From Elusimicrobiota bacterium (GTDB lineage: Bacteria; Elusimicrobiota; Elusimicrobia; UBA1565; UBA9628), in contig JACQWX010000029.1 of assembly GCA_016209035.1 (NCBI GenBank), forward strand, positions 1,676 to 65,675: DNA of 64,000 nt, given 5' to 3'. Positions within the stretch are counted from its first letter, which is position 1; every line of letters starts with the position of its first letter. Both the position numbers and the translations under genes were made by a program. The notes beneath the pieces are model-generated. The model was given only the letters and a program-made list of their open reading frames with translations. It did not search any database and was not told the DNA's origin. Below, in pieces: positions 6,960 to 38,769 of this stretch.

Positions 6960-7045
6960 TGGATGAATCCTATGATTACTATGATTGCTGATTATACTAT
7001 TAATACTCCGTCCAGTCAACCAATATGCTAGGATGTCCCCGCCTT
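6960..7045. promoter_or_regulatory. AT-rich divergent intergenic region with short direct repeats (probable divergent promoters/operator)
   Basis: The only AT-rich stretch in the neighbourhood (tatgattactatgattgctgattatactattaatact) lies between divergently oriented regulator genes. Confidence 0.35.
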
Positions 7046-7741: not shown

Positions 7742-7779
7742 CGATTCTTTGACCTTCCGAGGCTATACTATCCGGGAGC

Positions 7780-9817: not shown

Positions 9818-9829
9818 CAGGAGCATCCC

Positions 9830-11377: not shown

Positions 11378-11446
11378 CGCAAGATTATTTTTTCTTAATA
11401 CGAGAGACCCCGCAGCGACCGTTTTTTGGTAAAATGCTTCTTTCAG

Positions 11447-12269: not shown

Positions 12270-15200
12270 ATGAGCCTTTCTCTTTCCGGGCTTCTCGCCG
12301 TTCTCCTCTCGGGCGTCCCGACTGCCTCCGCGTCCACCGGCGCCATCTCGGGAACCATAATTTATGATGCCGGCTTCACCCCCGGCTCGACCATAACGGT
12401 CGTAGTCTCGACCGACATGTTTCGCGGGGAGATGATCTCCGCCACCGTCACGTCCGCCGGCGGCACGACCGTCGCCTACTCCCTGGAGCTGCCTGCCCCC
12501 GAGTCCTACGTCATCGGGGCCTTCGTCGGCGACAACCTGGATTCCCTGAGTCCCTCTACCCCGCTGGGATTCTATCAGGACTTCACCCTGGTGCCGCTCT
12601 CCGCGGGCGAGACCGTTTCCGGCAAGGATTTCTCTCTGGCGCTCGACGGCCAAAGCCCGACCTCAGGCTTCACTTCGCCCGCGGCGGGCTCGACCATCAC
12701 AGCTCTCTCCACCCTGGAAGGAACCGCAACCGACAACCTGGGCGCCGAAGCCTACCCCGACATGGCCGCCCTGGACCTGACCAACGGCAAGTGGTGGAGT
12801 CCCTGGGACCGGGTCTGGATCGCCACTACCACAACGCCGCTCTACTACGGAGTGGGGGCGGACGCAGCCGGCAAGCCGAGCACATTCACATGGACGATGG
12901 ACATAAGCACCGGCTCCGGCGGTTGGCGGTTCGGCGGCCTGGCCGGCTATCTTGCGAACAACCATCGCTACCGCCTCTACGCCAGCTTCGGCGACTATGT
13001 CGGCAACCGGCAGGCCCCGCCCGCGACGGCCGAGTTCACCTGGGACGGCCCGACCGGAGACTTGCTGCCCCCAGCCCCCGAATACGTGGACGGCTCTGCC
13101 CTCGGGACCTCGTCAATCGCCTGGCGGTGGGGAGCGGTCACGGACGCGACGGGCTACTCGGTCTATGAGTCCTCTGAGGGGCCGTTGATCGCCGCGGTCG
13201 CGACCAACACCTACACCTCGGCGGGATTCTCCACCAACACCGGGCACATGATATGCGTCTCCGCTTCCAACGAATACGGCGAGAGCCCCAGGAAGTGCCT
13301 GCCCTACTTCCTGTTCACCTTGGCCGCGGTCCCGGGAGAGCCTCGGGCGCTCGTCAGAAGTTCCACGACCATCACCTGGGAATGGGACCCAGAGACCAAT
13401 CCGGCCGCGACGTTCTACGAGCTGGCTCTCTCGACCGACGACTTCGCATCCGGCGCCGGCGCTTTGCTCGGCTTCAACTTCTCCACCGGGACCGCGACCA
13501 CCGGCCTGGAGCCGGACACGACCTACTACGCCCGGGTACGGGCGGCCAACGGCAACTTCATCCTGACCGGATTCTCGGGCTCGGGCTCGACCAAGACTTT
13601 GATCGCGGCCCCTTTGCCGCCGGTGAACCTCTCCGCGGTCTTCGACCGCGTCGATGCGGCCGTCAACCTGTCGTGGGAACCCGCTCCCACCGGCTCTCCA
13701 GCCGTCTACTTTGACATCAGCCGGAGCGCGAGCCCGACAGGCTCCTTTGTCTTGATTTCGACCGGCCTGACCGCGACTTCCTATATAGACCGGCCGCCGG
13801 CGTCGGCCGCGTATTACTATAGGGTCTATTCTGTCGGCGAATTCGGTGCGCCGAGTACCCTCCCGGCGACGGCGAACGCGCTCTTCGACGTCATACCGCC
13901 GCAGGCCGTCACGGGCCTCGGCCTGGCCGGCCTGCGGCCGGCCCAAAACGAAGTCGTTCTCTCCTGGACGGCTCCTTCGGACGACTACTCGGGCGTGAGC
14001 CGCTACCTGGTCCTCTCCTCGACCATGGCGGATTTCTCGGCCGGGGTCGCGACCCAGACCTGGGACTCCTCCGCCGTCCCAGGCAGCACGGTGACGGCCA
14101 CGGTATGGGTCAGCACGACTCAAAGCCAATACTTCGCGGTCATCGCCCAAGACGCCGTTGGCAACGAATCCAGCCGCTCGACGAGCATCCTGGTAGACGC
14201 CGTTCCTCCCGTCATTACCTCCTTCAACCTCGCCGAAGGCGAGGTGGTCTCCAGGCCCAGGCTGCTGAATGTCCAGGCCTCCGACAACCAGGGCTTCTTT
14301 GACAGCCTTTTCTACAAGATTGACGGCGTGGTGGTCAGCACCATCTCCTATGGGCAGCCCCATGCCTACTTCTGGGATACCAGGGACTACGCCCAGGACG
14401 GCCCGCATTCCGTGGAAGTCATCGTCCGGGACAACTTCGGCAACGAGGCGGCCTTGAGCCGTTCGGTCACGGTCGTCTATTCCACGCCTGCCGCGCCCGT
14501 TTTCTACGCTCCCCAAGAGGGCTTCACGACCCGGGTAGCCACGGTCAGCGTCCAGATCCTGGCCGAGCCCTATACGGCCGTCAGAGTCCTTGCTGACTCG
14601 GTGGAGATCGCCACCGCGGCCTTGGGCCAGAATGCCTGGCTCTTCACGACCGTGTCCCTGCCGGCCGAGGGAGACATCGCCCTGGCAGCGGTCACCTTCG
14701 AACCCAGGGGCGAAAGCTCGACTTCGACTCCCGTCCATGTCGCGTATTTCTCCGAGCCGCCCCTGCCGCCCGAGAGTCTCTTCGCGGCCGTTGACCTCCA
14801 GGCAAGGTCCATCACCCTTTCATGGCAGCCTGCGGCCTCGGGAACGCTTGCCACGGCCTTCAATGTCTACCGCGGCACCCAGCCCGCCGGAGCGGAGCTT
14901 CTCCGCTCCGGCGTAACGACCTTCTATTATCTGGACCAGCCCCTGCTTTCAGCTACCTATTACTACCGCATCAGCGCGACTCACGGCGCCGGGCTGGAAG
15001 GCCAGCCTTCCAGCCCGGTGAGCGCCTTCTTCGACATCTATCCGCCGCAACCTGTCAGCGACCTGCGCGCTGGAGACTACAGGCCCTCCCAGGCCCAGTT
15101 GGACCTGATCTGGACCGCGCCGCAGGATGATTTCTCGGGTCTTAGCCGCTACGTCCTGTACGATTCGACGACCGGGGTCTTCGACGCCGGCTCATCGTCT

Positions 15201-18200
15201 ACCGTCATCCAGGCCATTTCCCAGCCTGGCGAGACCGACGGCTACACGGTCAGCGTGGCTACCACCCAGACCCGCTACTTCAGGCTCAAGGCCGGGGACA
15301 GGGCCGGAAACCTCTCCACATTCTCCAACACCCTCTTCTTCGACCCGATCCCGCCGCAGATCGTCTCCGTGGACCTTGCCGAGGGCCCGGTCGTCTCCCG
15401 CCCCAGAAGCGTGACCGTCCAGGCCACGGACAACGTCGGGCTTGCCCAAGTCCTGTTCCGCGTTGACGGCGCGACCGTCGCCAGCATGGCTTCGCCGCCC
15501 TATTCCTTCATATGGGACACGCGTTTGCACTCGGACGGCATGCATGTGTTGCGGGGCGTCGCATACGATGTTGCCGGCAACACAGGAATTGCCGAGATCC
15601 CCGTGACGCTCAATTACATGCCCCCTGCGGCGCCGACCATTCTGTCTCCGGCGACCGGGTATGCCACGACGGTCGCGACCGTGAGCCTCTCAGGCATTGC
15701 GGAGGCCGGGACCACGGTTCAGCTTTTGATCAACGGCGGCCTGGCGTCGAGCGTGTGGGTCCCGCTCCAAGGAGGAATCGGAGGGTTCCAGTTTACGGAC
15801 GTGCCTCTCGCCTCGGAAGGCGTCAACACCTTGAACGTGCGGTCGTCGGACATCAAGGGAGCAAGTGCCAACTCCTCGGCCATCCAGGTGTTTCTGTATT
15901 TGGCGGCGCCTCCGCCTCCGCAGGGCGTGACGGCCGAGGCCCAGCCTGGAGGAACGGTCCGATTGGACTGGGTCGTGCCGTCCACTGGAACCGTCGCATT
16001 CTATAGGGTCTACAGAAGCACGGATGAGACCGTTTTCCTGAGCACCGAGCCCCTAGCCGCGGGCTTGAGGATCGCCGACAACGTCGTTGCCGTTCCTTTC
16101 CTGGACTCGCCGTCCACTGAAGCGGCCTACTTCTACGCCGTGACAGCCAACGATCCTGTGGGCAACGAAAGCTACTTGTCCGACATCGTATCAGCCGTCT
16201 CGGACAGGGGAGCCCCTTCCGCCTCGTTCCAGCTTGAGTCCGCCACCGGGCCTCTCGGTCCCGGGCAGCATCCTCTCCTGCTCACAGTGAGCGAGAACCT
16301 TGTCGCGATCCCCATCGTTACTTTCACGCCGCTGAACGGTTCCCCGCTTCCCGTGAACCTCGCGCCCCTTTCGCCCCTAGTCTGGAGAGGGACCGTCACC
16401 GTGACTTCAGCCATGCAGGAAGGAGCGGCAAACCTTGGCTTCCAGGGCTCCGACTATGTCGGCAACGTGGGCACTACGATAATCGCGGGAGGCACCCTGG
16501 TTCTTGACACCAAGGGCCCCTTGGGCGCGGTCTCCTTGGGCAAGGCTTCACCTGTGGGTCCCGGCCCCCTGGCCTTGACCTTGACCCTGAACGAGCCGGC
16601 AGTATCCACGCCTTCGCTTTCCTTCACGCCCTACGGCGGTTCGCCCCTGCCCATAGCCTTGGCCCAGTCCGTGGGCTCGACCGACAACAAGTCGTGGTCA
16701 GGGACAATTCTTGTCTCCTCCGGGACCGGCGACGGCCAGGCGACCTTCGCCTTCAGCGGCCAGGACCTGGTGGGCAACGCCGGAGACTCGCTCTCCGGAG
16801 GGACGACCTTCTTCGTGGTGGACGCGGTCCCGCCTGGCGCGCCCCGGTACCTGACCCCTGTCCCAGGCAAGGCGGGCGTCGTCCAATTGTCTTGGACAGT
16901 CCCCTTGGGCGAGAGGCCGTCGCGGTACACGGTCTACCGCGATGGGGAAAGAATCGCCGATGCGGTCCCTGTGAATTCCGACGGTTCCGGGACGTTCTCC
17001 GACCTCCCTGCCGAAGGCTCCCATGAGTACGCCGTAAGCGCCCTGGACGCCGCTGCCAACGAGGGTTCGCTCTCCGACCCCGTTTCCGCGACTTCGGACG
17101 CGACGGCTCCGCCTGCGCCCGCGAATCTGACTGCCGTACTCTACGGGTTCGGCCAAATTCAAATCACCTGGGAGCCTGGAGCCGGCGAGAGCCTTGCAAG
17201 CTACCGCCTCTACCGGACCACACACTCCATTTCGACCTTGGCCGGGCTGACACCCAGGCCTGCAGCCTCGCCCTACCTCGACTCGCCCACGGAGGACGCC
17301 ACCTACCATTATGTCGTGACCAGCCTGGACTCAGCCGGCAATGAGAGCCCCCCATCCTCCGAGGTTTCGCTCCTCTTTGACAAGGCCGCGCCGAGGATAG
17401 CTGTCTCAGGGGTGGCGGAAGGCGGGTTCTATAACGGGCCCGTGCTGCCTTCCTGGACCGTCGCGGACGGCAACCTTGATCCGTCGAGCGCGCGAGGCGC
17501 GCTCGATGGGAATCCGTTCGTTTCAGGTTCCATGGTTTCCGCCGAAGGCGGGCACGTTCTCTTGGTCACGGCCTCGGACACTGAAGGCCACGCCTCGACC
17601 GCGACGGTCTCCTTCACCCTGGACCTGACAACGCCGGCTATCAACATCTCCGGGGTCCAGGAAGGCGGGGTCTACCGCGGCACTGTGGCCGCGGTGATCA
17701 CGGCAACGGACCTGCATCTCTTGTCCACAAGCTACCTGCTCACGAACCTCACCCTGAATACCACGGTTCCCTATTCGTCCGGGGAGCCCATGGCGAGGAA
17801 CGGGTCCTATGTCCTGCGAGCCCAGGCCCAGGACAGGGCCGGGAATGATAGGACATCCGAGGTCTCCTTCACTCTGGAGGTTGGGCCGATAGCGCCCTTG
17901 AACCTTGCGGTGGAAGCGGCCAAAAGCGCTGGAGCGCGGTTGACTTGGCAGAAGCCCGAGCCCGGCGTGATCGCCTACCGGGTCTACCGTGACGACGCCA
18001 GGATCAGCGCGAGCCTTTACCAGGAGACGAGCTTCCAGGACAGCGGGTTCATCGCAGGGACAGAGCGCGTCTATGAAGTGTCGGCCGTGGACTATTCCGG
18101 GATAGAGGGTCCGAAGGCCAGAGTCACCGTGCCTGCGGTCTCCCTTGAGCTTGCGGGCTACGGCACGGCCAGGGATGGCAAGCAGTACCTGACCAGGGGC

Positions 18201-20921
18201 TTCTTCGACTCGGTGCGGTTCTCAGTGGCCAATGCGGGCTCCGAGTCCCTGAGCATGGGCCCAGCGTCCCTGGAGTTCGTCGATCAGCCCATGATCCAGA
18301 CCGTGCCTGCGTCTGCGGTCTCCCTGGCCTCTGGGGAGTCCGCCCTCCTGACCGGCATCGTTGCCACGCCTCCCAGCCTGCCCGGTTCCGTAAGCCTCAA
18401 GGCCCGGCTTCCCGTCCCTTCGGAGCCTGGGACCTCGCTCGCGCTGGTCCGCTCCTTCACCCTGGAATCCTCCGACCCGGTGGAGCCGGTCGTGGAGATA
18501 CTGCCAGGCGTGATGACTCCCGGGGCCATGGCCGACGTCCAGGTCAGGCTCCACAACCGCGGCTCTGCCGCGATGGACTTGCTGACAGGGCAGATGATCG
18601 GGGCCTCGCCTGCGCCGGTGGACTCCCTGGTGGCAAGGCTCAAGACCCCTGAAGGCACGCTTCTGGCGCAGGGAGGCGTTCTACAGACCGGAGGCGGAGC
18701 TTCCGGTCTGTACTTGGACGGGAAGCAGTGGTATTTCGTCTCGATCCCTGCCGGCTCGAACTTCCTGTTCGAGCCCATCGAGCTTTTGGTCCCGGATGCG
18801 GCAGGCTCGTCGGCCAAGGTGTCGGTCGTGGTCGCAACGCCCTCCTACAGCCTGGCCTTCAACCCTGTCCCAGGGACACGGAGGTTCGAGGGACTCTCTT
18901 CGCAGGTGCTGGTGAGCAGCATCGCCTACACGGCGACGGTCTCGGTGGAACGGGCCTATTACGACCAGGGGTCCTCAATGACCTTCACCGGCACGGCGAA
19001 GGACTCCCTGGGAGGACTCTTGCCCTACTCCACGGTGACGGTGCACGTGCTGAACCGTGGCTACGACCGTCACCTGACCACGGTGACGGACGAAGCCGGA
19101 GCCTACGCGGCGGTGTTCTACCCTCTTCCAAACGAAGCCGGCATCTACCAGGTAAGCGCCACGCATCCCGACATCGTAACGCACCTGATGCAGGCGAGCT
19201 TTACCATCGTGGACCTTGAGTACCAGTACCGGGAGTTCACCGCGAGCATAGCGCAGAACTCCCAGATGTTGTTTACGGTGAGGCTGACGAATACCGGCGA
19301 GGCTGCGTTGACCGGTCTCGCCGGAGAGGTGGTGCTCTCGACATCGGCTCCGGGAGTCCGGTTGTCGCTAGATCCCGCGAGCCTGCCCGGCATGCTCTCA
19401 GCAGGAGCGCAGGTAGAGCTTAGGCTGACGGCCTCGGCAGAACCCACAGCGCAGGTAGGCGCGGCCTATCTTTTCCTTGTCGTCAGCGAGTCCCACGGCT
19501 TCACGAGGACGCTTCCGGTCAAGGTCAAGGTAGGCGCTTCGCTGGCAATACCCACAGCCACGCCCCAGATGTTCGAGCTTGGCATGGCAGCGGGCGAGTC
19601 CAGGACGCAGGCGGTCACGCTCAAGAACGAAGGGTTTGCCCCGTGGCTTCAGGTCAGGCTCTCCCAGCCGACGCTGGGGTGGGTTCACATAGACGGTCTG
19701 ACCGACCTGGGGGACATCCAGCCTGGAGGCAACTCCAACTTCAGTCTGAGGATCGAGCCTCCGTCCAGCCTGCCCAATCAATCCTACGCGCAGAACCCGC
19801 TCTTGGAGGTCTATTCGCTCAACGCCGCGACCGTGTCCATCAATGCGGGGATCGTGGTGACCTCTTCCAAGCAGGGCGGCCTCGTCTTCCAAGTCATCAA
19901 TGCGGACGAGCAGAGGGACGCCAACGACAATGGCGTGCCTATCGCGGGCGCGGTAGCCACCCTGACGAGCCTTGACATCGCGGGGCTCGCCTTCAAGATC
20001 ACCGGGGACGCCAACGGGATCATTGAGTTCCAGAACGTTCCCAGCGGCAAGTACGCCTGGACCGTGGAGGCCCCGGGGTTCCTGGCCGAGTCGGGGACCA
20101 CGGACATCCAGCCCGGGCTGACCAAGACTATCGAATCGGTTATGGCCACGGCCACGGTAACCTACGAATGGACGGTGACGCCGACCACAATCACGGATGT
20201 CTACCAGATCACGCTTCAACAGACCTTTAAGACTGATGTCCCGGCCCCAGTAGTGGTGCTTGACCCACCCATCATCCATTTGAACGTTGAATCACACGTC
20301 GAGGTTTCCGGTCAGTTCACGGTGTCGAACAAGGGAATCGTTTCGGCGTTCGACGTGACGCTGCAACCCAGCAGCCCGGACGGGGAGGTCAAGATCGATC
20401 TGCCGTTCACCAAGATTCCCGAGCTAAGGCCAGGGGAGACGGTTGTTGTTCCTTACAAAATCAGCCACGGACAGTTGGCGGGGCCGGCCTGTCACAATCA
20501 TCCCGCTGCCATCGGGGCAGTGTTTGTCCGTCCATGCGCGGCCGGTATCATCATAAACGGGACGTGCGTGCCGATAAAGATTACTGTTGCCAGTGAGTTG
20601 AAGTCCTGTGCCGTCGGCGACGGCAGTGTGGGCGGCGCACGACCTCCCACCGGAGGCGGCGGCATCTGGGAGGCCACGAAACAGTGGATCAGCGCGATGT
20701 TCGGGACGCAGGTAGTCAAGAAACAATGTAGACCTCGCTGCAAACTCAAACGGGAAAGGAAATTTAAAGAATCAGACTTGCCTGATTCACGGTGGGAAAC
20801 GGAGTGCATGTATGAATGTGACGATGGGTACCTTTTTTATGATTACCTGATTGGGACAGCAGATGTCGCGTATGACTGTGAATTCTACGCCCCTGATCCC
20901 CGGGGCCCTCCGCCACGGTGA
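12270..20921 (+). CDS. Giant (2883 aa) secreted cell-surface multi-domain protein: repeated FN3-FN3-Ig-like modules, CARDB-like and carboxypeptidase-regulatory-like domains, Cys-rich C-terminal tail
   Basis: It has a signal peptide MSLSLSGLLAVLLSGVPTASAS. At least three repeated modules carry FN3 signatures (SWxxP, YYYRV), and Ig-like units begin DAVPP/DPIPP. A CarbopepD_reg-like segment (TVHVLNRGYDRHLTTVTDEAGAYAAVF) follows. The final ~150 aa contain 12 Cys and the coding composition drops to low GC. Confidence 0.8.
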   Translation: MSLSLSGLLAVLLSGVPTASASTGAISGTIIYDAGFTPGSTITVVVSTDMFRGEMISATVTSAGGTTVAYSLELPAPESYVIGAFVGDNLDSLSPSTPLGFYQDFTLVPLSAGETVSGKDFSLALDGQSPTSGFTSPAAGSTITALSTLEGTATDNLGAEAYPDMAALDLTNGKWWSPWDRVWIATTTTPLYYGVGADAAGKPSTFTWTMDISTGSGGWRFGGLAGYLANNHRYRLYASFGDYVGNRQAPPATAEFTWDGPTGDLLPPAPEYVDGSALGTSSIAWRWGAVTDATGYSVYESSEGPLIAAVATNTYTSAGFSTNTGHMICVSASNEYGESPRKCLPYFLFTLAAVPGEPRALVRSSTTITWEWDPETNPAATFYELALSTDDFASGAGALLGFNFSTGTATTGLEPDTTYYARVRAANGNFILTGFSGSGSTKTLIAAPLPPVNLSAVFDRVDAAVNLSWEPAPTGSPAVYFDISRSASPTGSFVLISTGLTATSYIDRPPASAAYYYRVYSVGEFGAPSTLPATANALFDVIPPQAVTGLGLAGLRPAQNEVVLSWTAPSDDYSGVSRYLVLSSTMADFSAGVATQTWDSSAVPGSTVTATVWVSTTQSQYFAVIAQDAVGNESSRSTSILVDAVPPVITSFNLAEGEVVSRPRLLNVQASDNQGFFDSLFYKIDGVVVSTISYGQPHAYFWDTRDYAQDGPHSVEVIVRDNFGNEAALSRSVTVVYSTPAAPVFYAPQEGFTTRVATVSVQILAEPYTAVRVLADSVEIATAALGQNAWLFTTVSLPAEGDIALAAVTFEPRGESSTSTPVHVAYFSEPPLPPESLFAAVDLQARSITLSWQPAASGTLATAFNVYRGTQPAGAELLRSGVTTFYYLDQPLLSATYYYRISATHGAGLEGQPSSPVSAFFDIYPPQPVSDLRAGDYRPSQAQLDLIWTAPQDDFSGLSRYVLYDSTTGVFDAGSSSTVIQAISQPGETDGYTVSVATTQTRYFRLKAGDRAGNLSTFSNTLFFDPIPPQIVSVDLAEGPVVSRPRSVTVQATDNVGLAQVLFRVDGATVASMASPPYSFIWDTRLHSDGMHVLRGVAYDVAGNTGIAEIPVTLNYMPPAAPTILSPATGYATTVATVSLSGIAEAGTTVQLLINGGLASSVWVPLQGGIGGFQFTDVPLASEGVNTLNVRSSDIKGASANSSAIQVFLYLAAPPPPQGVTAEAQPGGTVRLDWVVPSTGTVAFYRVYRSTDETVFLSTEPLAAGLRIADNVVAVPFLDSPSTEAAYFYAVTANDPVGNESYLSDIVSAVSDRGAPSASFQLESATGPLGPGQHPLLLTVSENLVAIPIVTFTPLNGSPLPVNLAPLSPLVWRGTVTVTSAMQEGAANLGFQGSDYVGNVGTTIIAGGTLVLDTKGPLGAVSLGKASPVGPGPLALTLTLNEPAVSTPSLSFTPYGGSPLPIALAQSVGSTDNKSWSGTILVSSGTGDGQATFAFSGQDLVGNAGDSLSGGTTFFVVDAVPPGAPRYLTPVPGKAGVVQLSWTVPLGERPSRYTVYRDGERIADAVPVNSDGSGTFSDLPAEGSHEYAVSALDAAANEGSLSDPVSATSDATAPPAPANLTAVLYGFGQIQITWEPGAGESLASYRLYRTTHSISTLAGLTPRPAASPYLDSPTEDATYHYVVTSLDSAGNESPPSSEVSLLFDKAAPRIAVSGVAEGGFYNGPVLPSWTVADGNLDPSSARGALDGNPFVSGSMVSAEGGHVLLVTASDTEGHASTATVSFTLDLTTPAINISGVQEGGVYRGTVAAVITATDLHLLSTSYLLTNLTLNTTVPYSSGEPMARNGSYVLRAQAQDRAGNDRTSEVSFTLEVGPIAPLNLAVEAAKSAGARLTWQKPEPGVIAYRVYRDDARISASLYQETSFQDSGFIAGTERVYEVSAVDYSGIEGPKARVTVPAVSLELAGYGTARDGKQYLTRGFFDSVRFSVANAGSESLSMGPASLEFVDQPMIQTVPASAVSLASGESALLTGIVATPPSLPGSVSLKARLPVPSEPGTSLALVRSFTLESSDPVEPVVEILPGVMTPGAMADVQVRLHNRGSAAMDLLTGQMIGASPAPVDSLVARLKTPEGTLLAQGGVLQTGGGASGLYLDGKQWYFVSIPAGSNFLFEPIELLVPDAAGSSAKVSVVVATPSYSLAFNPVPGTRRFEGLSSQVLVSSIAYTATVSVERAYYDQGSSMTFTGTAKDSLGGLLPYSTVTVHVLNRGYDRHLTTVTDEAGAYAAVFYPLPNEAGIYQVSATHPDIVTHLMQASFTIVDLEYQYREFTASIAQNSQMLFTVRLTNTGEAALTGLAGEVVLSTSAPGVRLSLDPASLPGMLSAGAQVELRLTASAEPTAQVGAAYLFLVVSESHGFTRTLPVKVKVGASLAIPTATPQMFELGMAAGESRTQAVTLKNEGFAPWLQVRLSQPTLGWVHIDGLTDLGDIQPGGNSNFSLRIEPPSSLPNQSYAQNPLLEVYSLNAATVSINAGIVVTSSKQGGLVFQVINADEQRDANDNGVPIAGAVATLTSLDIAGLAFKITGDANGIIEFQNVPSGKYAWTVEAPGFLAESGTTDIQPGLTKTIESVMATATVTYEWTVTPTTITDVYQITLQQTFKTDVPAPVVVLDPPIIHLNVESHVEVSGQFTVSNKGIVSAFDVTLQPSSPDGEVKIDLPFTKIPELRPGETVVVPYKISHGQLAGPACHNHPAAIGAVFVRPCAAGIIINGTCVPIKITVASELKSCAVGDGSVGGARPPTGGGGIWEATKQWISAMFGTQVVKKQCRPRCKLKRERKFKESDLPDSRWETECMYECDDGYLFYDYLIGTADVAYDCEFYAPDPRGPPPR

Positions 20922-20925
20922 GACT

Positions 20926-21978
20926 ATGGTTGCGAGATTGATTGCCTTGGAGGAAGGCTGGCAACTGTGCAGGCGTATCGTTGCGCCAGAATGGTTATTG
21001 TCGTTGTCAGTAGATACTGAGAAGCAACGATTGATTTGGTCCTATCTTGATTTAGACAAGAATGTCATCAACAGACTGCGCACAGAAGCACCCCCACTCC
21101 CTTGCGATCCCGCGGTAATACTCCCCACCTGTGACCTCGTCTTTGCCAGCACACGCGGCATTTCATCTTTTCGGTTGTCTACATATGCAGAACAATTGCT
21201 CGTGCCAGCAGATAACAATTACATGGTTCGCAATCTATGGGTGTCCCCGAAGGATGATTTGGAACTGCTCTTCATTCAATCTGATCTGGGCATGTTATCA
21301 GATGCCTCCACTGCGGGAAAGGACATTGTTCATATCGTAAGAGAAGAAGCCGTCCTTGTCTCGTGGCATGCGAACACGGGACGATCCCGAATTGTTTCGA
21401 AGTTTTCGAGTATTCCGGTTTTTGCGGATGTGGCATGGGAACATGGAGCGTTTTTCGCCTCTCTAGCAAATGGCGAAGTAATCAGATGCGATTTGGAATC
21501 GGGTGTTGTATCCTTACGGGAGAGCCTAAAAGCCTATAGCTCGGTTGCCGTTTCTCCCAGAGGGACATTGCTGACCTGGGATGATATGGATTCAGGTGTT
21601 GTGGAGACTTGCCAAGATGGAACTTGTTCACGCCTGACGCCGTTCGGAGGATTTCCGGCCTTTTCACCGGGTGGCGAGGCAATGGCTTTCTTGCGACAGA
21701 ATAGTGAGTTGTGGCTAAAATCATCCGATGGGCAACTCCATCGAATCGTGGCATTCCCAAAAACGGACTCGAAAATATTTGATTTCCCCACATGGTGCCA
21801 TTGCGGCAATCATCTCGCCATCAATCTGGTTATTTCAGGACTAGGCCCTGTCAGGCAGATGCTGGTTGTTGCTGATTTCTCTCAGCGCTTAGTGTGTATG
21901 CAGGAACGTTCCTCGCCTGCGTCGTCTGGAGGACGTGCTTGGATTCCCAAGATTGCCCTATGTCGCCAACATTGTTGA
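20926..21978 (+). CDS. Hypothetical cytoplasmic protein (~350 aa), possibly degenerate TolB/PD40-like beta-propeller; low-GC
   Basis: The ORF begins immediately after the giant-1 stop. It has no signal peptide and blade-like motifs (FPAFSPGGEAMAF, SVAVSPRGTLLTW). GC is about 40-53%, against ~68% in the flanks. The first 25 codons of the listed ORF (from 20851) overlap giant 1 in another frame and were rejected. Confidence 0.5.
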   Translation: MVARLIALEEGWQLCRRIVAPEWLLSLSVDTEKQRLIWSYLDLDKNVINRLRTEAPPLPCDPAVILPTCDLVFASTRGISSFRLSTYAEQLLVPADNNYMVRNLWVSPKDDLELLFIQSDLGMLSDASTAGKDIVHIVREEAVLVSWHANTGRSRIVSKFSSIPVFADVAWEHGAFFASLANGEVIRCDLESGVVSLRESLKAYSSVAVSPRGTLLTWDDMDSGVVETCQDGTCSRLTPFGGFPAFSPGGEAMAFLRQNSELWLKSSDGQLHRIVAFPKTDSKIFDFPTWCHCGNHLAINLVISGLGPVRQMLVVADFSQRLVCMQERSSPASSGGRAWIPKIALCRQHC

Positions 21979-22162
21979 GGTTTAATGAGACACTTCGGTC
22001 GTTGCCGGAGTTTGCGGTTTAGGCCGTGCCTTGGTCTGGTAGAATAGCCAAGGAGGCTGACATGGAGACGACGATGGAGCAGGTGGCGGACCATGTCGTT
22101 GTCTGGCGGTCGCATTTGGTTGCCTAAGCAATGCTTCACCCGAATGGGGCAGGAATGATCTG

Positions 22163-22987
22163 ATGTCTGTGAACATGCTGAATGCGCAATCGAGAAGTCA
22201 AGAGTGCAGCTCCGATCCAATGAATTTCATTCCCGCGTGGAAGGGATGCCGAGTCCACGGCTGGAGTTGCAGATGGGTACTGGTGTCACTGCTAGTCATG
22301 ATTCATTCGGTGCAACTTCCGGCGACAGAACCCATCGCCAAGATAACCCCACCCCTCGCGCGCGAGATTCAGAAGAACGAGCGAAGCATCGTCTTTGTCG
22401 ACGTTCGGTCACCCGCAGAATATGTTAAAGGGCATATCAAGGGGGCCCTTAATGTTCCTGTTGCAGACCTCCGCACTAGCACCATTCCGCAAGCCGATTT
22501 GGTGGTGGTCTATTGCCCCGACGAGGGATGTGCTCGTAGCGACCGTGCTGCATATGAATTGCTCGGCCTAGGCATCGCCAATGTGCGTGTGCTTGAGGGT
22601 GGCTTGGCCGGATGGCAACAGTACCGGTACCCTGTGGAACCTGCGCCTGCCGCAGCCCGCGTTGTCAGGATGTTGCCCGCGGAATTGCGTCGCTTGCTTG
22701 TGTCCTCTAAAATGATCGTGATTGACACCCGGCGCCATGATGAGTTCGTCGCCGGGCATGTTCCAGGGGCGGTGAATCTGCCGTTGGAAGGTCTGCCCGA
22801 GAGCTTGGCGTCAATGGAAAACAAAGGGCCCTGCGTGGTCTATGACCGGCTGCAGGAGCGCGCGCGCCAAGCAGCCATGATCTTGGCGGAGTCGGGGCGC
22901 GAAGCCCGCGAGCTTGTCGGCGGCATCGGGGCGTGGTCCAAGAAGGGCTATCCGATGGCGGTGGGGAATCAGTCCGAGGTGAAATGA
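22163..22987 (+). CDS. Tandem rhodanese-domain (sulfurtransferase-like) protein
   Basis: There are two rhodanese modules. The first has VFVDVRSPAEYVKGHIKGALNVP ... VVYCPDEGCARSD, with the CPDEGC active-site loop. The second has VIDTRRHDEFVAGHVPGAVNLP. Start is uncertain (an alternative is 22222). The stop overlaps the giant-2 ATG. Confidence 0.65.
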   Translation: MSVNMLNAQSRSQECSSDPMNFIPAWKGCRVHGWSCRWVLVSLLVMIHSVQLPATEPIAKITPPLAREIQKNERSIVFVDVRSPAEYVKGHIKGALNVPVADLRTSTIPQADLVVVYCPDEGCARSDRAAYELLGLGIANVRVLEGGLAGWQQYRYPVEPAPAAARVVRMLPAELRRLLVSSKMIVIDTRRHDEFVAGHVPGAVNLPLEGLPESLASMENKGPCVVYDRLQERARQAAMILAESGREARELVGGIGAWSKKGYPMAVGNQSEVK

Positions 22988-25900
22988 GGATCTGCATGCC
23001 GGGCGGTTGGCTGAGATTGTGGCGGGCGTTGATATTGGCGTCCGCCGTGATTCCTTCGTGGCAAGGGCTGTTGTCGGCCCAGGACGAGACGGTTTGCGCG
23101 GTTGTCAAGCTGGAGATCAAGCAGGAAGCCACGCTGGAGAGGGAGGCGTTCGACGCCCGCCTGCTGCTTAACAACAACTCGACGACTCAGCCCCTACAGA
23201 ATCTTTTCGTCAACTTTACAATCACCGATATCGACGGCAATCCGGCTGACATCCTTTTCTTCGTCAAGATCAGCTCGCTCAGCAACACCAACGCCATAGA
23301 CGGCACCGGCGTGGTCCAGTCCAGCAGCACGGCGGATATCCACTGGCTGATTATCCCTTCGACCGGCGCGGGCGGGAGCAATCCGCTGGGGCTGCGCTAT
23401 GCCATCCGGGCGAACATCTCCTACACGGCTAACGGCATCCCCCAGTTATTGAGCACTTTTGACGCTTTCATTACGGTGAAGCCTCAGCCTTCCACGAAGC
23501 TCGAATACGTCCTGCCCTACGAGGTGTTCTCTGACGAGCCCCTGACCGTTGAGATTGAGCCCATCGAGCCTTTCCCCTTGGGCGTGCGGGTGACCAACGT
23601 AGGCTATGGCACGGCCAGGAACTTCCAGATCGACTCAGCCCAGCCCAGGATAGTCGAGAACAAGCAGGGTTTGGCCGTTGACTTCAAGCTCCTGGGAACG
23701 GTGGTGGCTGGGAATACCATTCCTGATACCCTGCTTGTTCCTTTCGGCGACGTGGCTCCTGGGGGTGTTGGCCAAGCATCCTGGATCATGTCTACGACGC
23801 TCTCAGGCCGGTTCATCGAGTTCACCTCGACGTTTACCCACGCGGCCGAGCTTGGGGGTGCCCTCACATCCCTTATCCAGAGCGTGACGACCTACACCTT
23901 GCTCAAGGACGTTCTCGTGGACCTGCCTGGAAGGGACCGCGTGCCGGACTTCCTGGTCAACATGGGGCAGCCCAGGGGCGAGGGGATGCAGGCCCTGTTG
24001 GATTCTGGAGGAACCATTGCGGCTGAGTACATCCTGGAGTCCGACCAGCCGACACCGATCCAGGTTACCGAGGTTCCGGCGGCCGTTTCGGGAACCTTGG
24101 CAGGGACCAATGCGAGCCTGACGCTCTCGTTCGCGCAGCCGGTAGGATCCAATGTATGGGCCCATTCCTCCGTCCCGGTCGTGTTGCCGGCCGGAGTCAG
24201 CCTTGTGTTCGTAACGCGGTCGGACGGAAAGGCGCTCAATCCCGCCAACGGCTGGATATCCAAACACTTTCGGAAGTCAGACCGGTCCGTACTGCGCCGG
24301 CTCAACGTCATTGACCTGACATCGAGCGCGACGGCCTACGTTTTTAACTTCAGCGCCGCGGGCCTGGAGCAGGCGCCCGGCGCCGTCGCCGACCTGGCGG
24401 CTGCGACCGGCCAGCGTGGGGGTGAGCTCGCGTTGTCCTGGACCGCTCCTGGCGAGGACGGCCAGACAGGAGCGATACTGGGCGGACGGTATTTGATCCA
24501 GCACGAGGTTGACCAGAGCGCATCGTTCGCGCCCGCGGCGGCCCTGGTGGTCTTCGCCACCTCGACCGCTCCAGGCAGGATCGAACGCTATGTCCTGACC
24601 GGCGCGATCGGCAATACGACCAACTATCTCAGGCTCTGGACCCAGGACACGGGCGGCGCGATGTCCGGCATATCGAACGGCGCGACTGCATATGCCCTGC
24701 CCAATCCTCCGGCTCAAAGTGCTTTCGTGGCCGTCAGCTCGGAAGCGTTGGGAGTCTCCTGGGTAATCGGCAACAATAGCCTTCCGATCGAATATCAAGT
24801 GGTCGTGAACACGGACTTGGCCGAGCCTTTCGTGAGTTCAAGCCCGTTCTTCGGTTCCTTCCAGAACAGCTTCACTTTCGCTGGTCTTGCGCCCAATACC
24901 GCCTACACTCTCTTCGGCTTTGCCCGCAACCCTGAGACTGGGGCCAGGTCCGAGATGGCGGTCCTTGGGAGCACGACGACCTTGGCTACCCCGCCAGTTG
25001 CCCAGCCGTTCGCTGACCTGTCCACGAACAGCCTGACCGCTGCCTGGGCCATAGGGAGCAACCCTGCCGGGACCGAGTACTGGGTCGAGCTTTCGACCCT
25101 TCCTGAGCGAGCGCCGGTCATTGCCCAGAGCGGCTGGATCAGGGCCGGCAGCTTCACATTCTCCGGGCTTGCGTCCGCCACGACCTACTATGCCCGGGCC
25201 AAAGCGAGGAACCTGGGGCTGGTGGAGACTGGGTTCACGGACCTCGGGGCGGCATGGACGAGTTCCGCGGACAACATGCCTCCGAGGACCGGCCTTGTCG
25301 TGGGACTGCCCAGATTCGGCGCCGCCCCGGTCTTCGTTACTGACAAGACGACCTTCAGCTTTACGGTGGCCGACGACCTGGAGACGGTTGGGGACGGCGC
25401 GGGCTTGGGCGCGGCGTACACTATGGTGTCCGTGGATACCGCTCCTTTCTTCAACTTTGCCGCGGCCTTCAGCCTGGTCGAGCCCGGGATGCATACGATC
25501 CGGTACTACAGCGTGGACTACCTCAACAATGTCGAGACGGAACGTCAGGCTGCGGTGGTAGTCGACGCAATCGCTCCCGCAACCTCATTGGAAGTGTTGG
25601 GAAGCTCGAGGGTCGTGGGCGGGATGATTGAACTCTTTGAGGGGTCCAACATCACCTTGACAGCCAGTGATCCAGAACCTGTCGGTGTCGGCTCAGGGGT
25701 TGGAAGGACGATCTTCTTGATTGACACGGCTCCTGAGAACTGCATCGGGGGTGCGCCTGCTTGGCCGCCTGACCCTTCCTTTCCGCAAGGGAGTTGCCGA
25801 AACCCCGTCTTCACCGCTCCTTTCGCGCTCTCGAAAGGAACTCACACCGTCCTCTATTATTCAGTGGACCACGTCGGGAATACCGAGGTACCGGGATCAA

Positions 25901-28900
25901 TCGCTTTGAGTGTGTCGCGGCCTCCGGGGGATATCACGGAGACCGGGCGGGTTGATTTCAGGTTCTCATTCGGCGGCCAGGGAAGCGCGCCAGGGCAGTT
26001 CAATTTCATGTCAGACGTTAGCGTAGATCAGGAGGGCAACGTCTACGCGGCGGACTCTGGGAATGCGCGAATCCAGAAATTCAACCCCGCAGGGGGTTTT
26101 CTGCTGGCGTGGGGCAGCTATGGCAGCGGTCCAGGGCAGTTCTCCGGCTTATGGGCGATCAATGTGTGCGCAGGCTTCGCTGAACAACGCGTGGTTGCCG
26201 TTGACAACCCGAACCGGCGCGTCCAGATTTTCACCAGCACGGGCGGTCTTCTTGGGCAAATTGGGCCCGGTATCGGCGGTTCGACCTTCACCCTCAGCTA
26301 TCCAGTCGGCGTAGCCTGTGACGGGGCGGGACATGTCTATATTGGAGATCAGGGTCTGCGCTTGATCTTGAAAACGGACCAGACCGGTCGGCTCCTGGGT
26401 TCTTGGTCCATTCCCGAGGGGGGCATCGGCCGTATCGCTGTTGACATGTCCGGGATGGTCTATGTTTCCGTCGGACGAGCAGTCTTCAAATTCACGGCCG
26501 ATGGCACGCTGCTTCAGCGTTTCGGGGACCCGAATTCAACGCTAGGCAACCTGAGCCGCTCCCAAGGCATGGCCTTCGACATCTTCAACAACCTCTATGT
26601 AGGCGACAGTTGCACGGGGGGACAGGGTGTTCAGGTCTTCGCGCCTTCAGGAACCTTTCTTGCGAAATTCGGCGAACCTGGGACTGCGCCTGGGCAGTTC
26701 TTGAGTTACGTGGTGCAAGGCGTCGGGATCGACCGGTGGACGGGCAGGATTTTTGCGACCGATACCAGCGAGAATCGCGTTGAAGTGTTCGATGTCGCAG
26801 TCCCGACCACGGATATCAAGGCCCCGCTGACGAAGCTGCTGGTTCTGGGCCCATCCGGAGCAACCGGGGACGGCAATTTGATTGTCACTACGACCACCTT
26901 GCTCTCATTTGAATCCGTTGACTCGGCGCATCCTGGCATCGCTCCCTCCGGGGTCGCTTTCACCGAATATCGTTTGGATGAGACTGGTCCTTTCCAGCGG
27001 TTCACCACGCCCTTTGCGCTTGAATTCGTAGTGGCCGGATTCCCATATCGCGGTATCGAATACCGAAGCACGGACCATGCAGGCAACGTAGAGCCGGCCA
27101 GGCTCGTTCATGTCTATTTGGACTTCACGCCTCCTCGCTCCGCCCTCTTCTTCGATGAGAACCAAGTGACCCAGATGTTCGGCCCTGAGAGCATCGCTCT
27201 GCCCGGCGATCTGGCATTTCCGGAGACAGAATTCACCATTGTGGCGCATGATCCTGGGAATCCGTTTTCCGCCGGCGTCGGCACGGTCACCGCGGCCCTG
27301 GATGGGATGCCGGTAGAGCTGGAACGTAAGCCTGAGACCTCGCCATGTCCAGAGCCTCTGCATGGTTGGGACTGCGTCAGGCTGGATGTTCCTGGCCAGG
27401 AGCGGCCGCTCGCGGAAGGCCTGCATTTACTCACATGGCAGAGCGGCGACAAGACCGGCAATTTCGACATACCGCGGACAGTGTCATTCAATGTGGTGCG
27501 CAGGCCGCCAAATGTCGTCAACAACCCGGCGCACAAGTTCCTGACGGCCTTGCAAAGTCCTGAGCCTGACGGGTTCTTCGGCTTGACCGATTTGGCAGTC
27601 GACTTTTTCGGCAACGTGTACGTGGCCAACCTCGGCCCATACAAAGCAACGATATGGCGATTCTCCTCGGATGGCGCGCTGCTTCAGCAATTCCCGATTG
27701 ACGCGCAAGGCATGGATGTCGGGGTCAGTCCTGTTCGGCTGGCCATCAACCCGACACTTGACCGCAAGCTCCTGGTGACCGCGGGATACCATGTCGGTTT
27801 CTATACAACCGAGGGTTCGGTTCAGTACTTTCCGAGCACCTTCGGGGGCTTCAGCTTCGTCAACGCCTCCGACGCCGCCTTTGACTCCGCGGGAAACATC
27901 TATGTGGCGGATTCGGCGCAGGGCAAGATCTTCAAGTTCTCCCCGTCTCTTGAGTTCATCATGGCGTTCGGCGAGCGCGGAGGCGGTCAGTTCGTCACCG
28001 GCCCCGGTCGACTGGCGTCTGACCGGAACGGGCACATTTTTGCGACAGACACCAACCCGGGCCGCATCCTCAAATTCTCATCGGCGGGCGAATTCATCGG
28101 GAGCATCTCCGGCCCGATGGCGGAGCCCGACGGTCTCAGCACGGACATCTATGGCAATGTCCTTGTCGCGGACAGGAGTCTCAACGTCATTCATCTATTC
28201 AGCAGCACCGGCGCATTGGTGGGGCAAATAGGCTCTCCCGGCTCCGGTCAAGGCCAACTGGCGTCGCCCAGAGGATTGGACATCCATCTGCAAAGAGGAC
28301 GGGTCTATGTCGCGGACAGAGCCAATCAGCGTGTCCAGATATTCGCTCCGGATCTTCTCCCCGACACGGTCATGAACTTGCACGCCACGGCAACCATGGA
28401 GGGCGAGGTGCTCCTTTCCTGGACGGCTCCTGGGGAGGATGGCGGCACGGGCCAAGCCGCGAGCTATGAGCTGCGTTATTCTACGATGCCCATCACGAAC
28501 ATTTCGGAGTATCTCGAAGCCTCCACGGTCACGACGCCATCGCCTGGACCGGCCGGCTCGACCGAAACGCTGAGGATTGCCGGGCTGGCTGGGAACACGA
28601 GCTTCTACTTCGCATTGCGGGCATTTGACTCCGCCGGCAATCCGTCCGCCCTATCCAATACAGCCGTCGTCCGCACCCCATTCATCGTAAGAAGCGCCGC
28701 TATGATCAACGGCAATCCTGAGCTGTTGATGATAGCGTCGAACATCGAGCCTGCCGTTGTCTTGATCGACACCACCTCATCCGCCGGAGGTTTCGTGTTG
28801 GCCGCAGCCTCCAGCCAAACCCTGGAGCTGGCAAGCAACCTGTACGACGTAGGCCCTCCCGGCGCGGAATTCTCTCCTTTGGCCAGCCTTACCCTCAGGT

Positions 28901-37348: not shown

Positions 37349-37350
37349 CC

Positions 37351-38736: not shown

Positions 38737-38769
38737 CATTCTCGCAAAAATATCGAGGAGTCCATTCCC

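What the first reader, a model, noticed from the sequence alone, without database searches (positions are those of the whole stretch)
20150..24300. ~4-kb low-GC island spanning the junction of the two giant surface-protein genes
GC by hand count is ~38-55% here, against ~65-72% in the flanks.

The island is not a discrete gene insertion. It covers:
- the last ~250 aa of giant 1, including a 12-Cys C-terminal tail with no recognisable sorting signal;
- a 350-aa cytoplasmic hypothetical (20926..21978);
- the AT-rich spacer 21979..22162, which has a CCTTGG...CCAAGG hairpin;
- a tandem-rhodanese gene whose stop overlaps the giant-2 ATG;
- the signal peptide plus first ~430 aa of giant 2.

Both giants are therefore compositionally chimeric. 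Possible explanations:
- a horizontally acquired or recombined variable cassette at the business ends of two adhesins;
- a polymorphic C-terminal effector domain on giant 1 with a cognate immunity-like cytoplasmic partner;
- a locus-specific hypervariable region.

No integrase or transposase is present.
Basis: seen in the sequence. Interest (0 to 1): 0.7.

Follow-up and report, generated by a model that had tools for sequence, protein, structure and literature searches.

The report
Swappable toxin-like tail cassette on adhesin
The low-GC patch is real but smaller than reported: it is a foreign-looking two-part cassette (a 66-residue cysteine tail on giant protein 1 plus a cytoplasmic beta-propeller gene) at a site where related Elusimicrobia carry Rhs toxin tips and immunity genes.

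Summary
The GC trough is real and is the deepest in the window (z about -4), but it is narrower and milder than reported. The core is about 20,721-22,160 at 49-52% GC. No window of 300 nt or more falls below 47%.

By third-codon-position GC, giant 2's N-terminus is native (0.80). It is 53-72% identical to orthologues in six relatives, so only giant 1 is chimeric. The sharpest break, at nt 20,721, marks the start of a 66-residue Cys module.

"ORF350" is not an orphan. It belongs to a rare family of about 40 full-length members and folds as a 7-bladed PD40-like propeller (pLDDT 91). In all 12 contexts examined, its gene directly follows a secreted protein ending in the same Cys motif, and the carrier proteins differ.

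At the same position, giant-1 orthologues carry one of:
- RHS repeats plus divergent tips, small low-GC genes (one matches Pfam Imm32) and orphan RHS modules;
- PLA2-like Cys-rich tails.

Best reading: a polymorphic-toxin-type C-terminal cassette with a cognate binder, probably an immunity protein. Toxicity is untested. The tail/propeller pair matches no described family.

The parts
12270..20921 (+). Giant 1 (2,883 aa). Sec-type signal peptide, then fn3 / Ig-like / CarboxypepD_reg arrays. No RHS repeats and no T9SS C-terminal domain.
   Evidence: ORF list and translation; Pfam. GC3 is 0.80 up to codon 2817.
19674..20564 (+). Conserved 'pre-tail' region of giant 1: CarboxypepD_reg, the TVTYEWTVTPTTI...KTDVPAP motif, a CARDB-like Ig domain and the C...CAAG motif. 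It is shared with all orthologues, and homology with RHS-type orthologues ends here.
   Evidence: Alignments A1 and A4. 23 genome loci were recovered with its two motifs, with matches ending at query residues 263-315.
20565..20720 (+). Linker part of the tail: a Gly-rich stretch plus the amphipathic IWEATKQWISAMFG. It is conserved only with the closest tail relative (L004, which shares the GGGGI..A.KQWIS stretch); L002 aligns over the start of the tail.
   Evidence: GC3 is 0.67-0.73.
20721..20921 (+). Terminal Cys module (aa 2818-2883, KKQCRPRC...TECMYEC...YDC...PPPR, then stop). Motif: C-x(12-25)-xxC[TLME][YW]xC-x(14-22)-C-x(5-12)-end. Putative effector, or the epitope bound by the partner.
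   Evidence: GC3 change point at nt 20,721, 0.80 to 0.455. The module's GC (0.49) matches ORF350's (0.50), not the carrier body's (0.64). The same motif ends the upstream gene in 12 of 12 ORF350-family contexts (alignments A6-A8).
20926..21978 (+). ORF350: cytoplasmic 7-bladed PD40/TolB-like beta-propeller. It starts 4 nt after the giant-1 stop. Putative cognate binder (immunity-like) of the tail.
21979..22162 (+). Spacer. Contains inverted repeat 22029-22034 / 22048-22053 and a 21-codon ORF (22062-22127) behind AAGGAGG. No evidence of function.
   Evidence: Sequence; fold z -0.15; no terminator or promoter excess; no Rfam match.
22163..22987 (+). Tandem rhodanese with an N-terminal hydrophobic anchor or signal. 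It is syntenic and directly upstream of giant 2 in six relatives, so it is not part of the swappable cassette. Its first ~220 codons have depressed GC3 (0.61).
   Evidence: Pfam Rhodanese, two stretches. Homologues at 30-39% identity in L012-15, L022 and L023, directly upstream of giant 2. Change point at 22,826.
22984..35181 (+). Giant 2 (4,065 aa): NHL, Big_13, fn3, DUF7305 and a weak T9SS-type C-terminal domain. The N-terminal 440 aa (22984-24300) form a conserved domain with native composition.
   Evidence: Pfam. GC3 0.80-0.82 at the 5' end. 53-72% identity to six orthologues.
35181..36197 (+). PorV/PorQ-family outer-membrane protein, overlapping the giant-2 stop. Likely partner of giant 2's C-terminal domain.
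   Evidence: NCBIfam NF033709, 164 bits against a cutoff of 90.

Best explanation
The trough marks a horizontally exchanged two-part cassette grafted onto the 3' end of giant 1. The cassette is the last ~66 codons of giant 1 (a small Cys-stabilised module) plus the next gene (a cytoplasmic 7-bladed PD40-type beta-propeller).

**Setting.** The site is the C-terminal diversification point of a conserved Elusimicrobia surface-protein pair. Sister genomes carry Rhs-type polymorphic toxin tips with immunity genes and orphan modules there, or PLA2-like tails.

**Proposed mechanism**
1. Giant 1 is exported by Sec and displays or releases its C-terminal module as an effector against neighbouring cells.
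2. The propeller binds that module 1:1 in the producer's cytoplasm and neutralises it, acting as immunity.
3. Recombination in the conserved pre-tail region swaps alternative endings.

**Shown**
- Composition break and its position.
- Family membership and fold of the partner.
- 12/12 tail-partner linkage on different carriers.
- Alternative endings, an immunity gene and orphan modules at the orthologous site.
- Giant 2 and the rhodanese are conserved.

**Inferred**
- Physical tail-propeller binding.
- Toxicity of the tail and the immunity role of the propeller.
- The recombination mechanism.
For: **1. Cassette boundaries**
- GC3 change point at nt 20,721, which is the first residue of the conserved terminal module (0.80 to 0.455).
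- Tail and propeller share their composition (0.49 / 0.50) against 0.64 for the carrier body. The same pattern holds in L004, L030 and L035.

**2. Obligate pairing**
- Every ORF350-family gene whose upstream DNA could be read follows an ORF ending in the C...xxC[TLME][YW]xC...C motif. These are the window, L004-6, L030-32, L033, L034, L035/L042, L037, L039, L040, L041 and L043.
- Where gene calls are available, the start lies 2-15 nt after the carrier stop or overlaps it by 4 nt; in L043 the called start is about 60 nt downstream.

**3. Shuffling onto different carriers**
- Giant fn3/Ig protein.
- 800-aa Trypsin_2 + Big_1 protein with a signal peptide.
- 802-aa dockerin + Big_5 + Big_1 + CarboxypepD_reg protein.
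- 309-aa small protein.
- Tandem module in L042.

**4. Co-divergence**
- Tail and propeller identities correlate: Mantel r 0.255, p 0.02.

**5. Orthologous site is a polymorphic-toxin locus**
- RHS_repeat E 1e-81 to 1e-104 in L013-15 and L018-20, with the last ~100-150 aa divergent.
- The downstream low-GC ORF in L013 matches Pfam Imm32 at 37 bits against a cutoff of 27.
- L019 and L020 carry 5'-truncated RHS copies, 75-86% identical to their own giant, with new tips and new small ORFs.
- L005 has a giant-1-like fragment after the propeller gene.
- L022, L023 and P0003 have PLA2G12-like Cys-rich tails.

**6. Partner looks like a binder, not an enzyme**
- Generic peptide-binding-type propeller.
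- The invariant or near-invariant residues (W, G, L, A, F, C, D) include no recognisable catalytic set.
Against: - No toxin, immunity or defence family matches the window's tail or ORF350 (Pfam, NCBIfam and PADLOC).
- The shared module is only ~55-66 aa and its invariant positions are three Cys, which is small and non-catalytic for a polymorphic toxin domain.
- The partner (350 aa) is large for an immunity protein. Zhang et al. 2012 state that beta-propellers had not been found among immunity proteins (PMC3482391).
- No orphan propeller gene without a tail was seen. 12/12 pairing fits an obligate chaperone or partner equally well.
- L040 has two tandem copies of the motif, which is unusual for a toxin domain.
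- The window itself has no orphan module.
- The tail structure could not be modelled: single-sequence pLDDT 36.
Confidence: 0.55

Rival explanations
1. The tail and propeller are a non-toxic substrate/partner pair. The propeller would be a dedicated cytoplasmic chaperone, export-holdase or maturation-recognition factor for a Cys-rich C-terminal tag. The tag may later be released as a disulfide-rich peptide, or may dock the carrier on the surface.
For: - 12/12 strict pairing with no orphan partner genes seen.
- The motif always sits at the extreme C-terminus of Sec-exported surface proteins of many architectures, as sorting tags do.
- The motif is duplicated in tandem in L040.
- Only Cys are invariant.
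- Beta-propellers are unreported as immunity proteins.
Against: - The tag has no hydrophobic anchor, and the partner has no signal peptide or TM segment, so it cannot act on an exported protein.
- Known sorting systems use one enzyme for many substrates, not one partner gene per substrate.
- The propeller has no conserved catalytic residues.
- The cassette occupies exactly the slot that holds Rhs tips plus immunity genes in orthologues, and it shows the low-GC signature and the orphan or tandem arrangements of conflict systems.
Confidence: 0.25
2. ORF350 is an unrelated foreign gene that landed between two adhesin genes. The Cys tail of giant 1 is native or read-through sequence with no functional link to ORF350.
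For: - The low-GC composition of ORF350 fits recent horizontal acquisition.
- No known family matches either part.
Against: - The tail motif is conserved upstream of every family member examined, on unrelated carriers (12/12).
- The compositional break lies inside giant 1 at the start of the motif.
- Tail and propeller co-diverge.
Confidence: 0.05
3. The trough is an artefact: a metagenome-assembly chimera, or amino-acid bias with no foreign origin.
For: - The source is a MAG.
- For giant 2's N-terminus the lower GC is indeed amino-acid bias: GC3 0.80 with GC1/GC2 0.50/0.40.
Against: - An independent Logan contig is 100% identical across both edges.
- The core shows GC3 of 0.45-0.49 against 0.80-0.9, so synonymous sites deviate.
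- The same architecture, giant-like C-terminus plus tail plus propeller, is found in other samples (L004-6).
Confidence: 0.03

Closest known systems
Rhs/YD-repeat polymorphic toxin loci (GC-rich core, AT-rich C-terminal tip plus immunity gene, downstream orphan tips)
   Same: - Orthologues of giant 1 at this exact site are Rhs proteins with divergent tips, small low-GC downstream genes (one Imm32) and 5'-truncated orphan modules.
- The window shows the same low-GC tip plus downstream gene on a GC-rich scaffold.
- The AT-rich-tip pattern of Rhs elements is established knowledge, recalled rather than tested here.
   Different: - The window's giant 1 has no RHS repeats and no DPxGL-type core end.
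- The tip is a ~66-aa Cys module.
- The downstream gene is a 350-aa beta-propeller rather than a small immunity protein.
Polymorphic toxin systems in the sense of Zhang, de Souza, Anantharaman, Iyer and Aravind 2012 (PMC3482391)
   Same: - Conserved secreted scaffold.
- C-terminal domains swapped between unrelated carriers.
- Tightly linked downstream gene.
- Standalone or tandem cassettes.
   Different: - The tail and partner belong to no described toxin or immunity family.
- That survey noted that beta-propeller immunity proteins had not been found.
- Toxicity has not been shown.
TolB beta-propeller binding short disordered epitopes (Pal, colicin TolB boxes)
   Same: - ORF350 is a PD40-type propeller. 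TolB structures, including TolB-colicin peptide complexes, are the top Foldseek matches and also match the family profile.
- This gives a precedent for a propeller of this type binding a short peptide.
   Different: - No signal peptide, so cytoplasmic rather than periplasmic.
- No TolB N-terminal domain.
- 7 blades as predicted here; TolB's propeller is 6-bladed (recalled, not tested).
TANFOR-domain polymorphic toxins of Bacteroidetes (Jana, Salomon and Bosis 2020, PMC7073777)
   Same: Large Sec-exported proteins with variable C-terminal toxin domains and a downstream immunity gene, in neighbourhoods enriched for T9SS cargo (section list).
   Different: - No TANFOR domain is detected here.
- Different phylum.
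- The T9SS-like C-terminal domain and the PorV/PorQ gene belong to giant 2, not to the toxin-bearing giant 1.

Membership tests
Polymorphic toxin system | Homologous scaffolds carry unrelated alternative C-terminal domains | tested here: met
   After the shared pre-tail domain, orthologues end in one of:
- RHS plus divergent tips (L007, L012-15, L018-21);
- PLA2G12-like tails (L022, L023, P0003);
- the Cys tail (window, L004-6, L002);
- another short tail (P0002).
Polymorphic toxin system | Cognate immunity gene immediately downstream of the toxin domain | tested here: inconclusive
   - A gene starts 4 nt after the stop (ORF350) and is always linked to the tail motif (12/12).
- An Imm32 gene sits in the same slot in L013.
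- ORF350 itself matches no immunity family, and protection was not tested.
Polymorphic toxin system | Standalone or orphan toxin cassettes near the main gene | tested here: not met
   None in the window (184-nt spacer, then the conserved rhodanese). It is met in relatives: L019 and L020 carry orphan RHS modules, L005 a giant-1-like fragment after the propeller, and L042 a tandem module.
Polymorphic toxin system | C-terminal domain is toxic and is neutralised by the partner | not testable with these tools
   Needs expression and neutralisation assays.
Rhs / YD-repeat toxin | RHS/YD repeat shell ending in a DPxGL-type core motif before the tip | tested here: not met
   No RHS_repeat hit in the window's giant 1. 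Orthologues score E 1e-81 to 1e-104. L013 shows ...NNPLLLSDPFGL.
Genomic island / mobile element | Integrase or transposase, tRNA target, flanking direct repeats | tested here: not met
   - No such ORF in 20-24 kb.
- No tRNA in the window.
- Only short chance-level repeats.
- One relative (L022) has an rve integrase ORF in the same gap.
T9SS cargo (C-terminal sorting domain) | Por_Secre_tail-type C-terminal domain, with PorV-family partner | tested here: inconclusive
   - Giant 1: no C-terminal domain, so not met.
- Giant 2: Por_Secre_tail at 17.6 bits, below the cutoff of 27.
- The adjacent gene is PorV/PorQ family at 164 bits against a cutoff of 90.
PD40 / TolB-like beta-propeller | Propeller fold built of PD40-type blades | tested here: met
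   - AF2 pLDDT 91, 28 strands making 7 blades.
- Foldseek top hits are TolB.
- Pfam PD40 hits 10 of 33 family members, but not the window protein itself.
Group XII-like secretory phospholipase A2 tail | CxxHDxCY catalytic motif in a Cys-rich domain | tested here: not met
   The window tail has ECMYECDDGY with no His-Asp dyad. The motif is present in L022 (CNEHDKLY), L023 (CDGHDACY) and P0003 (CDQHDKCY; precomputed Pfam PF06951).

The most novel reading that the evidence does not exclude
The Cys tail and the PD40 propeller form a previously undescribed two-component system that is not classical toxin/immunity. A C-terminal disulfide-rich mini-domain would be appended to many kinds of Sec-exported surface proteins, each with its own dedicated cytoplasmic propeller. 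The propeller would hold or license the tail before export: a private chaperone or gatekeeper, or the recognition subunit for release of a peptide.

Alternatively, if it is toxin/immunity, this would be the first beta-propeller immunity family and a minimal ~60-aa non-enzymatic effector.
Probability: 0.25. Interest if true: 0.75.

Novelty: new variant of a known kind. Interest (0 to 1): 0.55.

Why it matters
- It turns an anonymous low-GC patch into a defined, testable two-gene module, a 66-aa Cys tail plus a 350-aa propeller. The module recurs on unrelated secreted proteins and matches no model in Pfam, NCBIfam or PADLOC.
- It shows that uncultivated groundwater Elusimicrobia carry polymorphic-toxin loci on giant adhesin-like proteins: Rhs-type tips, PLA2-like tips and this new type. 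The swap point lies exactly where a single giant protein of Planctomycetes corresponds to two genes in Elusimicrobia.
- If the propeller is an immunity protein, it widens the known structural repertoire of immunity. If it is not, the pair is a new kind of tag/partner system.
- For scanning practice, in-frame GC3 separates true foreign DNA (the giant-1 tail and ORF350) from amino-acid bias (the giant-2 N-terminus).

Tried and rejected
- **Word-indexed search with ORF350** found only itself. The apparent orphan status was overturned by full HMMER.
A5 worked on metagenomes and gave 4 loci.
- **Profile search with the 10-tail alignment** against 5.8 billion proteins gave nothing at E <= 10. The motif is too short.
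- **AF2 of the tail.** The single-sequence model was useless at pLDDT 36, so no fold search was run on it. A tail-propeller complex cannot be predicted with these tools.
- **No matches for ORF350** in PADLOC or in plasmid and phage tblastn. **No Rfam or tRNA hits in the region**.
- **Mobile-element boundaries.** No meaningful direct or inverted repeats.
- **Spacer hairpin or riboswitch idea** rejected: z -0.15, no terminator.
- **Considered and rejected:**
  - methylamine / quinohemoprotein amine dehydrogenase-like pairing of a Cys-rich small subunit with a propeller: only generic propeller similarity, and ORF350 lacks a signal peptide;
  - a sortase-type C-terminal sorting signal: no hydrophobic segment, and the partner is cytoplasmic;
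  - PLA2 activity for the window tail: no His-Asp motif.

Full report
**Source and layout**

The window comes from an Elusimicrobia MAG. ORF350 is NCBI 'HY748_04105 [Elusimicrobia bacterium]', on a contig of 76,429 nt.

Gene order on the + strand:
- two-component genes (7025-11377);
- skp/OmpH (11426-12268);
- giant 1 (12270-20921);
- ORF350 (20926-21978);
- a 184-nt spacer;
- tandem rhodanese (22163-22987);
- giant 2 (22984-35181);
- a PorV/PorQ-family gene (35181-36197);
- lpxD, fabZ, lpxA.

**Checking the observation**

The trough is real and is the strongest compositional anomaly in the window. Minima are 0.467 (300 nt), 0.491 (1 kb) and 0.518 (2 kb), all centred at 20.7-21.2 kb with z near -4. 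Tetranucleotide distance peaks at 20,501-22,500 with z 3.8.

It is not an assembly join. A Logan contig from run SRR12113406 is 100% identical over 19,520-23,525.

It is shallower and narrower than described. The stated interval averages 0.562 GC, and 37-40% is reached only in 60-100-nt windows.

In-frame GC3 separates foreign DNA from amino-acid bias:

| Segment | GC3 |
|---|---|
| Backbone genes | 0.88-0.96 |
| Giants, whole-gene average | 0.76-0.79 |
| Giant 1 at 19.9-20.1 kb, just upstream of the decline | 0.87-0.93 |
| Giant 1 from ~20,110 | 0.63-0.77 |
| Giant 1 after the change point at codon 2818 (nt 20,721) | 0.455 |
| ORF350 | 0.48 |
| Rhodanese until ~22,826 | 0.61 |
| Rhodanese after ~22,826 | 0.85 |
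| Giant 2, first codons | 0.80-0.82 |

Giant 2's lower total GC at its 5' end sits in codon positions 1 and 2. Only giant 1 is chimeric.

The tail holds 9 Cys, not 12. These are 9 of the 11 in the whole protein. The spacer hairpin exists but is not unusual: fold z -0.15, no terminator, no Rfam hit.

**ORF350**

The word-indexed search found only the protein itself. An exhaustive HMMER search found 162 hits. About 40 are full-length proteins of 326-397 aa at 22-43% identity.

- Ten of 33 members hit Pfam PD40.
- With the family alignment, AF2 gives a confident 7-bladed propeller: pLDDT 91.2, pTM 0.88, 28 strands.
- No family member has a signal peptide. The invariant or near-invariant residues (W, G, L, A, F, C, D) include no recognisable catalytic set.

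I read it as a binder rather than an enzyme. This is inference.

**The tail-propeller pair**

I read the DNA upstream of every family member I could reach. In all 12 contexts the preceding ORF ends with the same module: an upstream Cys, then xxC[TLME][YW]xC, 14-22 residues, a last Cys (usually CP), and 5-12 more residues to the stop. Where gene calls are available, the propeller start lies 2-15 nt after the carrier stop or overlaps it by 4 nt; in L043 the called start is about 60 nt downstream. The contexts are the window, L004-6, L030-32, L033, L034, L035/L042, L037, L039, L040, L041 and L043 (alignments A6-A8).

The carriers are unrelated extracytoplasmic proteins:
- the giant fn3/Ig protein;
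- an 800-aa Trypsin_2 + Big_1 protein with a signal peptide;
- an 802-aa dockerin + Big_5 + Big_1 + CarboxypepD_reg protein;
- a 309-aa protein.

L042 shows the module in tandem, and L040 has two motif copies in one tail.

In the window, L004, L030 and L035, the last 66 codons of the carrier share the propeller's lower GC rather than the carrier's. In the window, the GC3 change point falls on the first residue of the module. Tail and propeller identities co-vary: Mantel r 0.255, p 0.02.

So the tail and the propeller are one inherited unit that moves between carriers.

**The orthologous site in relatives**

Two motifs of the conserved pre-tail domain (TVTYxWTVTP, TFKTDVPAP) recovered 23 genome loci. 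Sixteen are labelled Elusimicrobia-type MAGs, and L009-L011 ('bacterium' or Myxococcota MAG labels) match at similar identity.

*What is conserved.* In six of these loci the rhodanese (30-39% identity) and giant 2 follow as in the window. Giant 2's N-terminal 440 aa are 53-72% identical. These two genes are therefore fixed parts of the locus, not cassettes.

*What varies.* The variable part is everything between the pre-tail domain and the rhodanese.
- In L007, L012-15 and L018-21, giant 1 continues for about 1,200-1,350 aa (L007 is cut at the contig end). RHS repeats, scanned by Pfam in L013-15 and L018-20, score E 1e-81 to 1e-104. The last ~100-150 aa diverge.
- Small ORFs follow at 0.30-0.51 GC, and they differ in each genome. 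The one in L013 is Pfam Imm32.
- L019 and L020 carry 5'-truncated RHS copies, 75-86% identical to their own giant up to the core end, each with a new tip and a new small low-GC ORF.
- L022, L023 and P0003 lack RHS and end in Cys-rich PLA2G12-like tails. L022 also has an rve integrase ORF in the gap.
- In L005, a fragment 55% identical to giant-1 aa 1925-2004 follows the propeller gene.

This is the anatomy of a polymorphic-toxin locus. The window carries one of its alternative endings.

**Mechanism**

*Best-supported reading (about 0.55).* The tail is the effector end of giant 1 and ORF350 is its cognate cytoplasmic neutraliser. New endings are installed by recombination in the conserved pre-tail region.

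Against a classical toxin/immunity reading:
- the module is short and only its Cys are invariant;
- the partner is large and is a propeller, a fold Zhang et al. 2012 noted as absent from immunity proteins;
- no orphan partner genes were seen;
- no known toxin or immunity model matches.

*Main rival (about 0.25).* A non-toxic tag with a private cytoplasmic chaperone or gatekeeper.

Random insertion and artefact explanations are contradicted by the 12/12 linkage, the position of the break and the independent contig.

**A further inference**

In Sedimentisphaerales and Thermoguttaceae (Planctomycetes), a single ORF contains a segment homologous to giant-1 aa 2162-2747. It is followed 160-390 aa later by a segment homologous to giant-2 aa 30-444.

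The giant-1 / giant-2 boundary therefore corresponds to an internal point of one polypeptide elsewhere. This suggests that giant 1, which has no anchor, docks on giant 2, which has a weak T9SS-type C-terminal domain and a PorV/PorQ neighbour. This was not tested.

**Verdict**

The 'both giants chimeric' idea is rejected.
- Rhs-type polymorphism at this locus is a known kind of system.
- The Cys-tail/propeller module is an undescribed variant whose function still needs experiment.

Noticed in passing
window 11426-12268 and 36209-39579: The ~24-kb block (giant 1, ORF350, rhodanese, giant 2, PorV/PorQ-family gene) lies between skp/OmpH and lpxD-fabZ-lpxA, which are classic neighbours in outer-membrane biogenesis clusters. 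The block's GC3 (0.76-0.81) is below the backbone's (0.88-0.96). No skp, lpxD or PorV homologue was found in the flanks fetched for relatives, where response-regulator-like ORFs lie upstream.
   Followed up: partly
L027, L028, L029 (Planctomycete loci) against window 18753-20510 and 23071-24315: Single ORFs contain homologues of giant-1 aa 2162-2747 and giant-2 aa 30-444 in that order, 160-390 aa apart. The two Elusimicrobia giants therefore look like a split version of one architecture, with the toxin cassette and the rhodanese at the split.
   Followed up: partly
window 25534-27300: A second, milder GC3 dip (0.63-0.68 against 0.75-0.85 elsewhere in giant 2) covers the first NHL / beta-propeller repeat region of giant 2. 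Tetranucleotide z is 1.3-1.7.
   Followed up: no
window 22050-22127: A 21-codon ORF (METTMEQVADHVVVWRSHLVA) sits 5 nt behind a strong AAGGAGG in the spacer, just after the inverted repeat. There is no evidence that it is expressed or conserved.
   Followed up: no
window 6931-7030: The global GC minimum at the 60-100-nt scale (0.32-0.38) is not in the island. It lies in the short gap between divergent genes 6366-7019 (-) and the response regulator 7025-7741 (+), probably a promoter region.
   Followed up: no
L041 1-140: The Cys-tail reading frame upstream of propeller P0013 has an in-frame TGA five codons before the CTYDCC motif. This could be a sequencing error, a very short separate ORF, or recoding.
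   Followed up: no
L022 12594-13511: An rve-type integrase ORF (Pfam rve, E 1e-15) sits in the giant-1 / rhodanese gap of a relative, so the same gap also accepts insertion sequences.
   Followed up: no
L003 1140-1697: In a lower-GC relative, the giant-1-like protein P0002 ends in a different short Cys-rich tail. It is followed 7 nt later by a 185-aa hydrophobic, probably multi-pass membrane protein (by eye; not run through a TM predictor), which is another candidate tail/partner pair.
   Followed up: no
window 22163-22987: In the tandem rhodanese, only the first domain keeps a Cys in the active-site loop (VVVYCPDEGCARS). The second has Asp at that position (VVYDRLQERA). An N-terminal hydrophobic stretch suggests export or membrane anchoring. 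The weak NCBIfam match 'rhoda_near_glyco' is below its cutoff.
   Followed up: no
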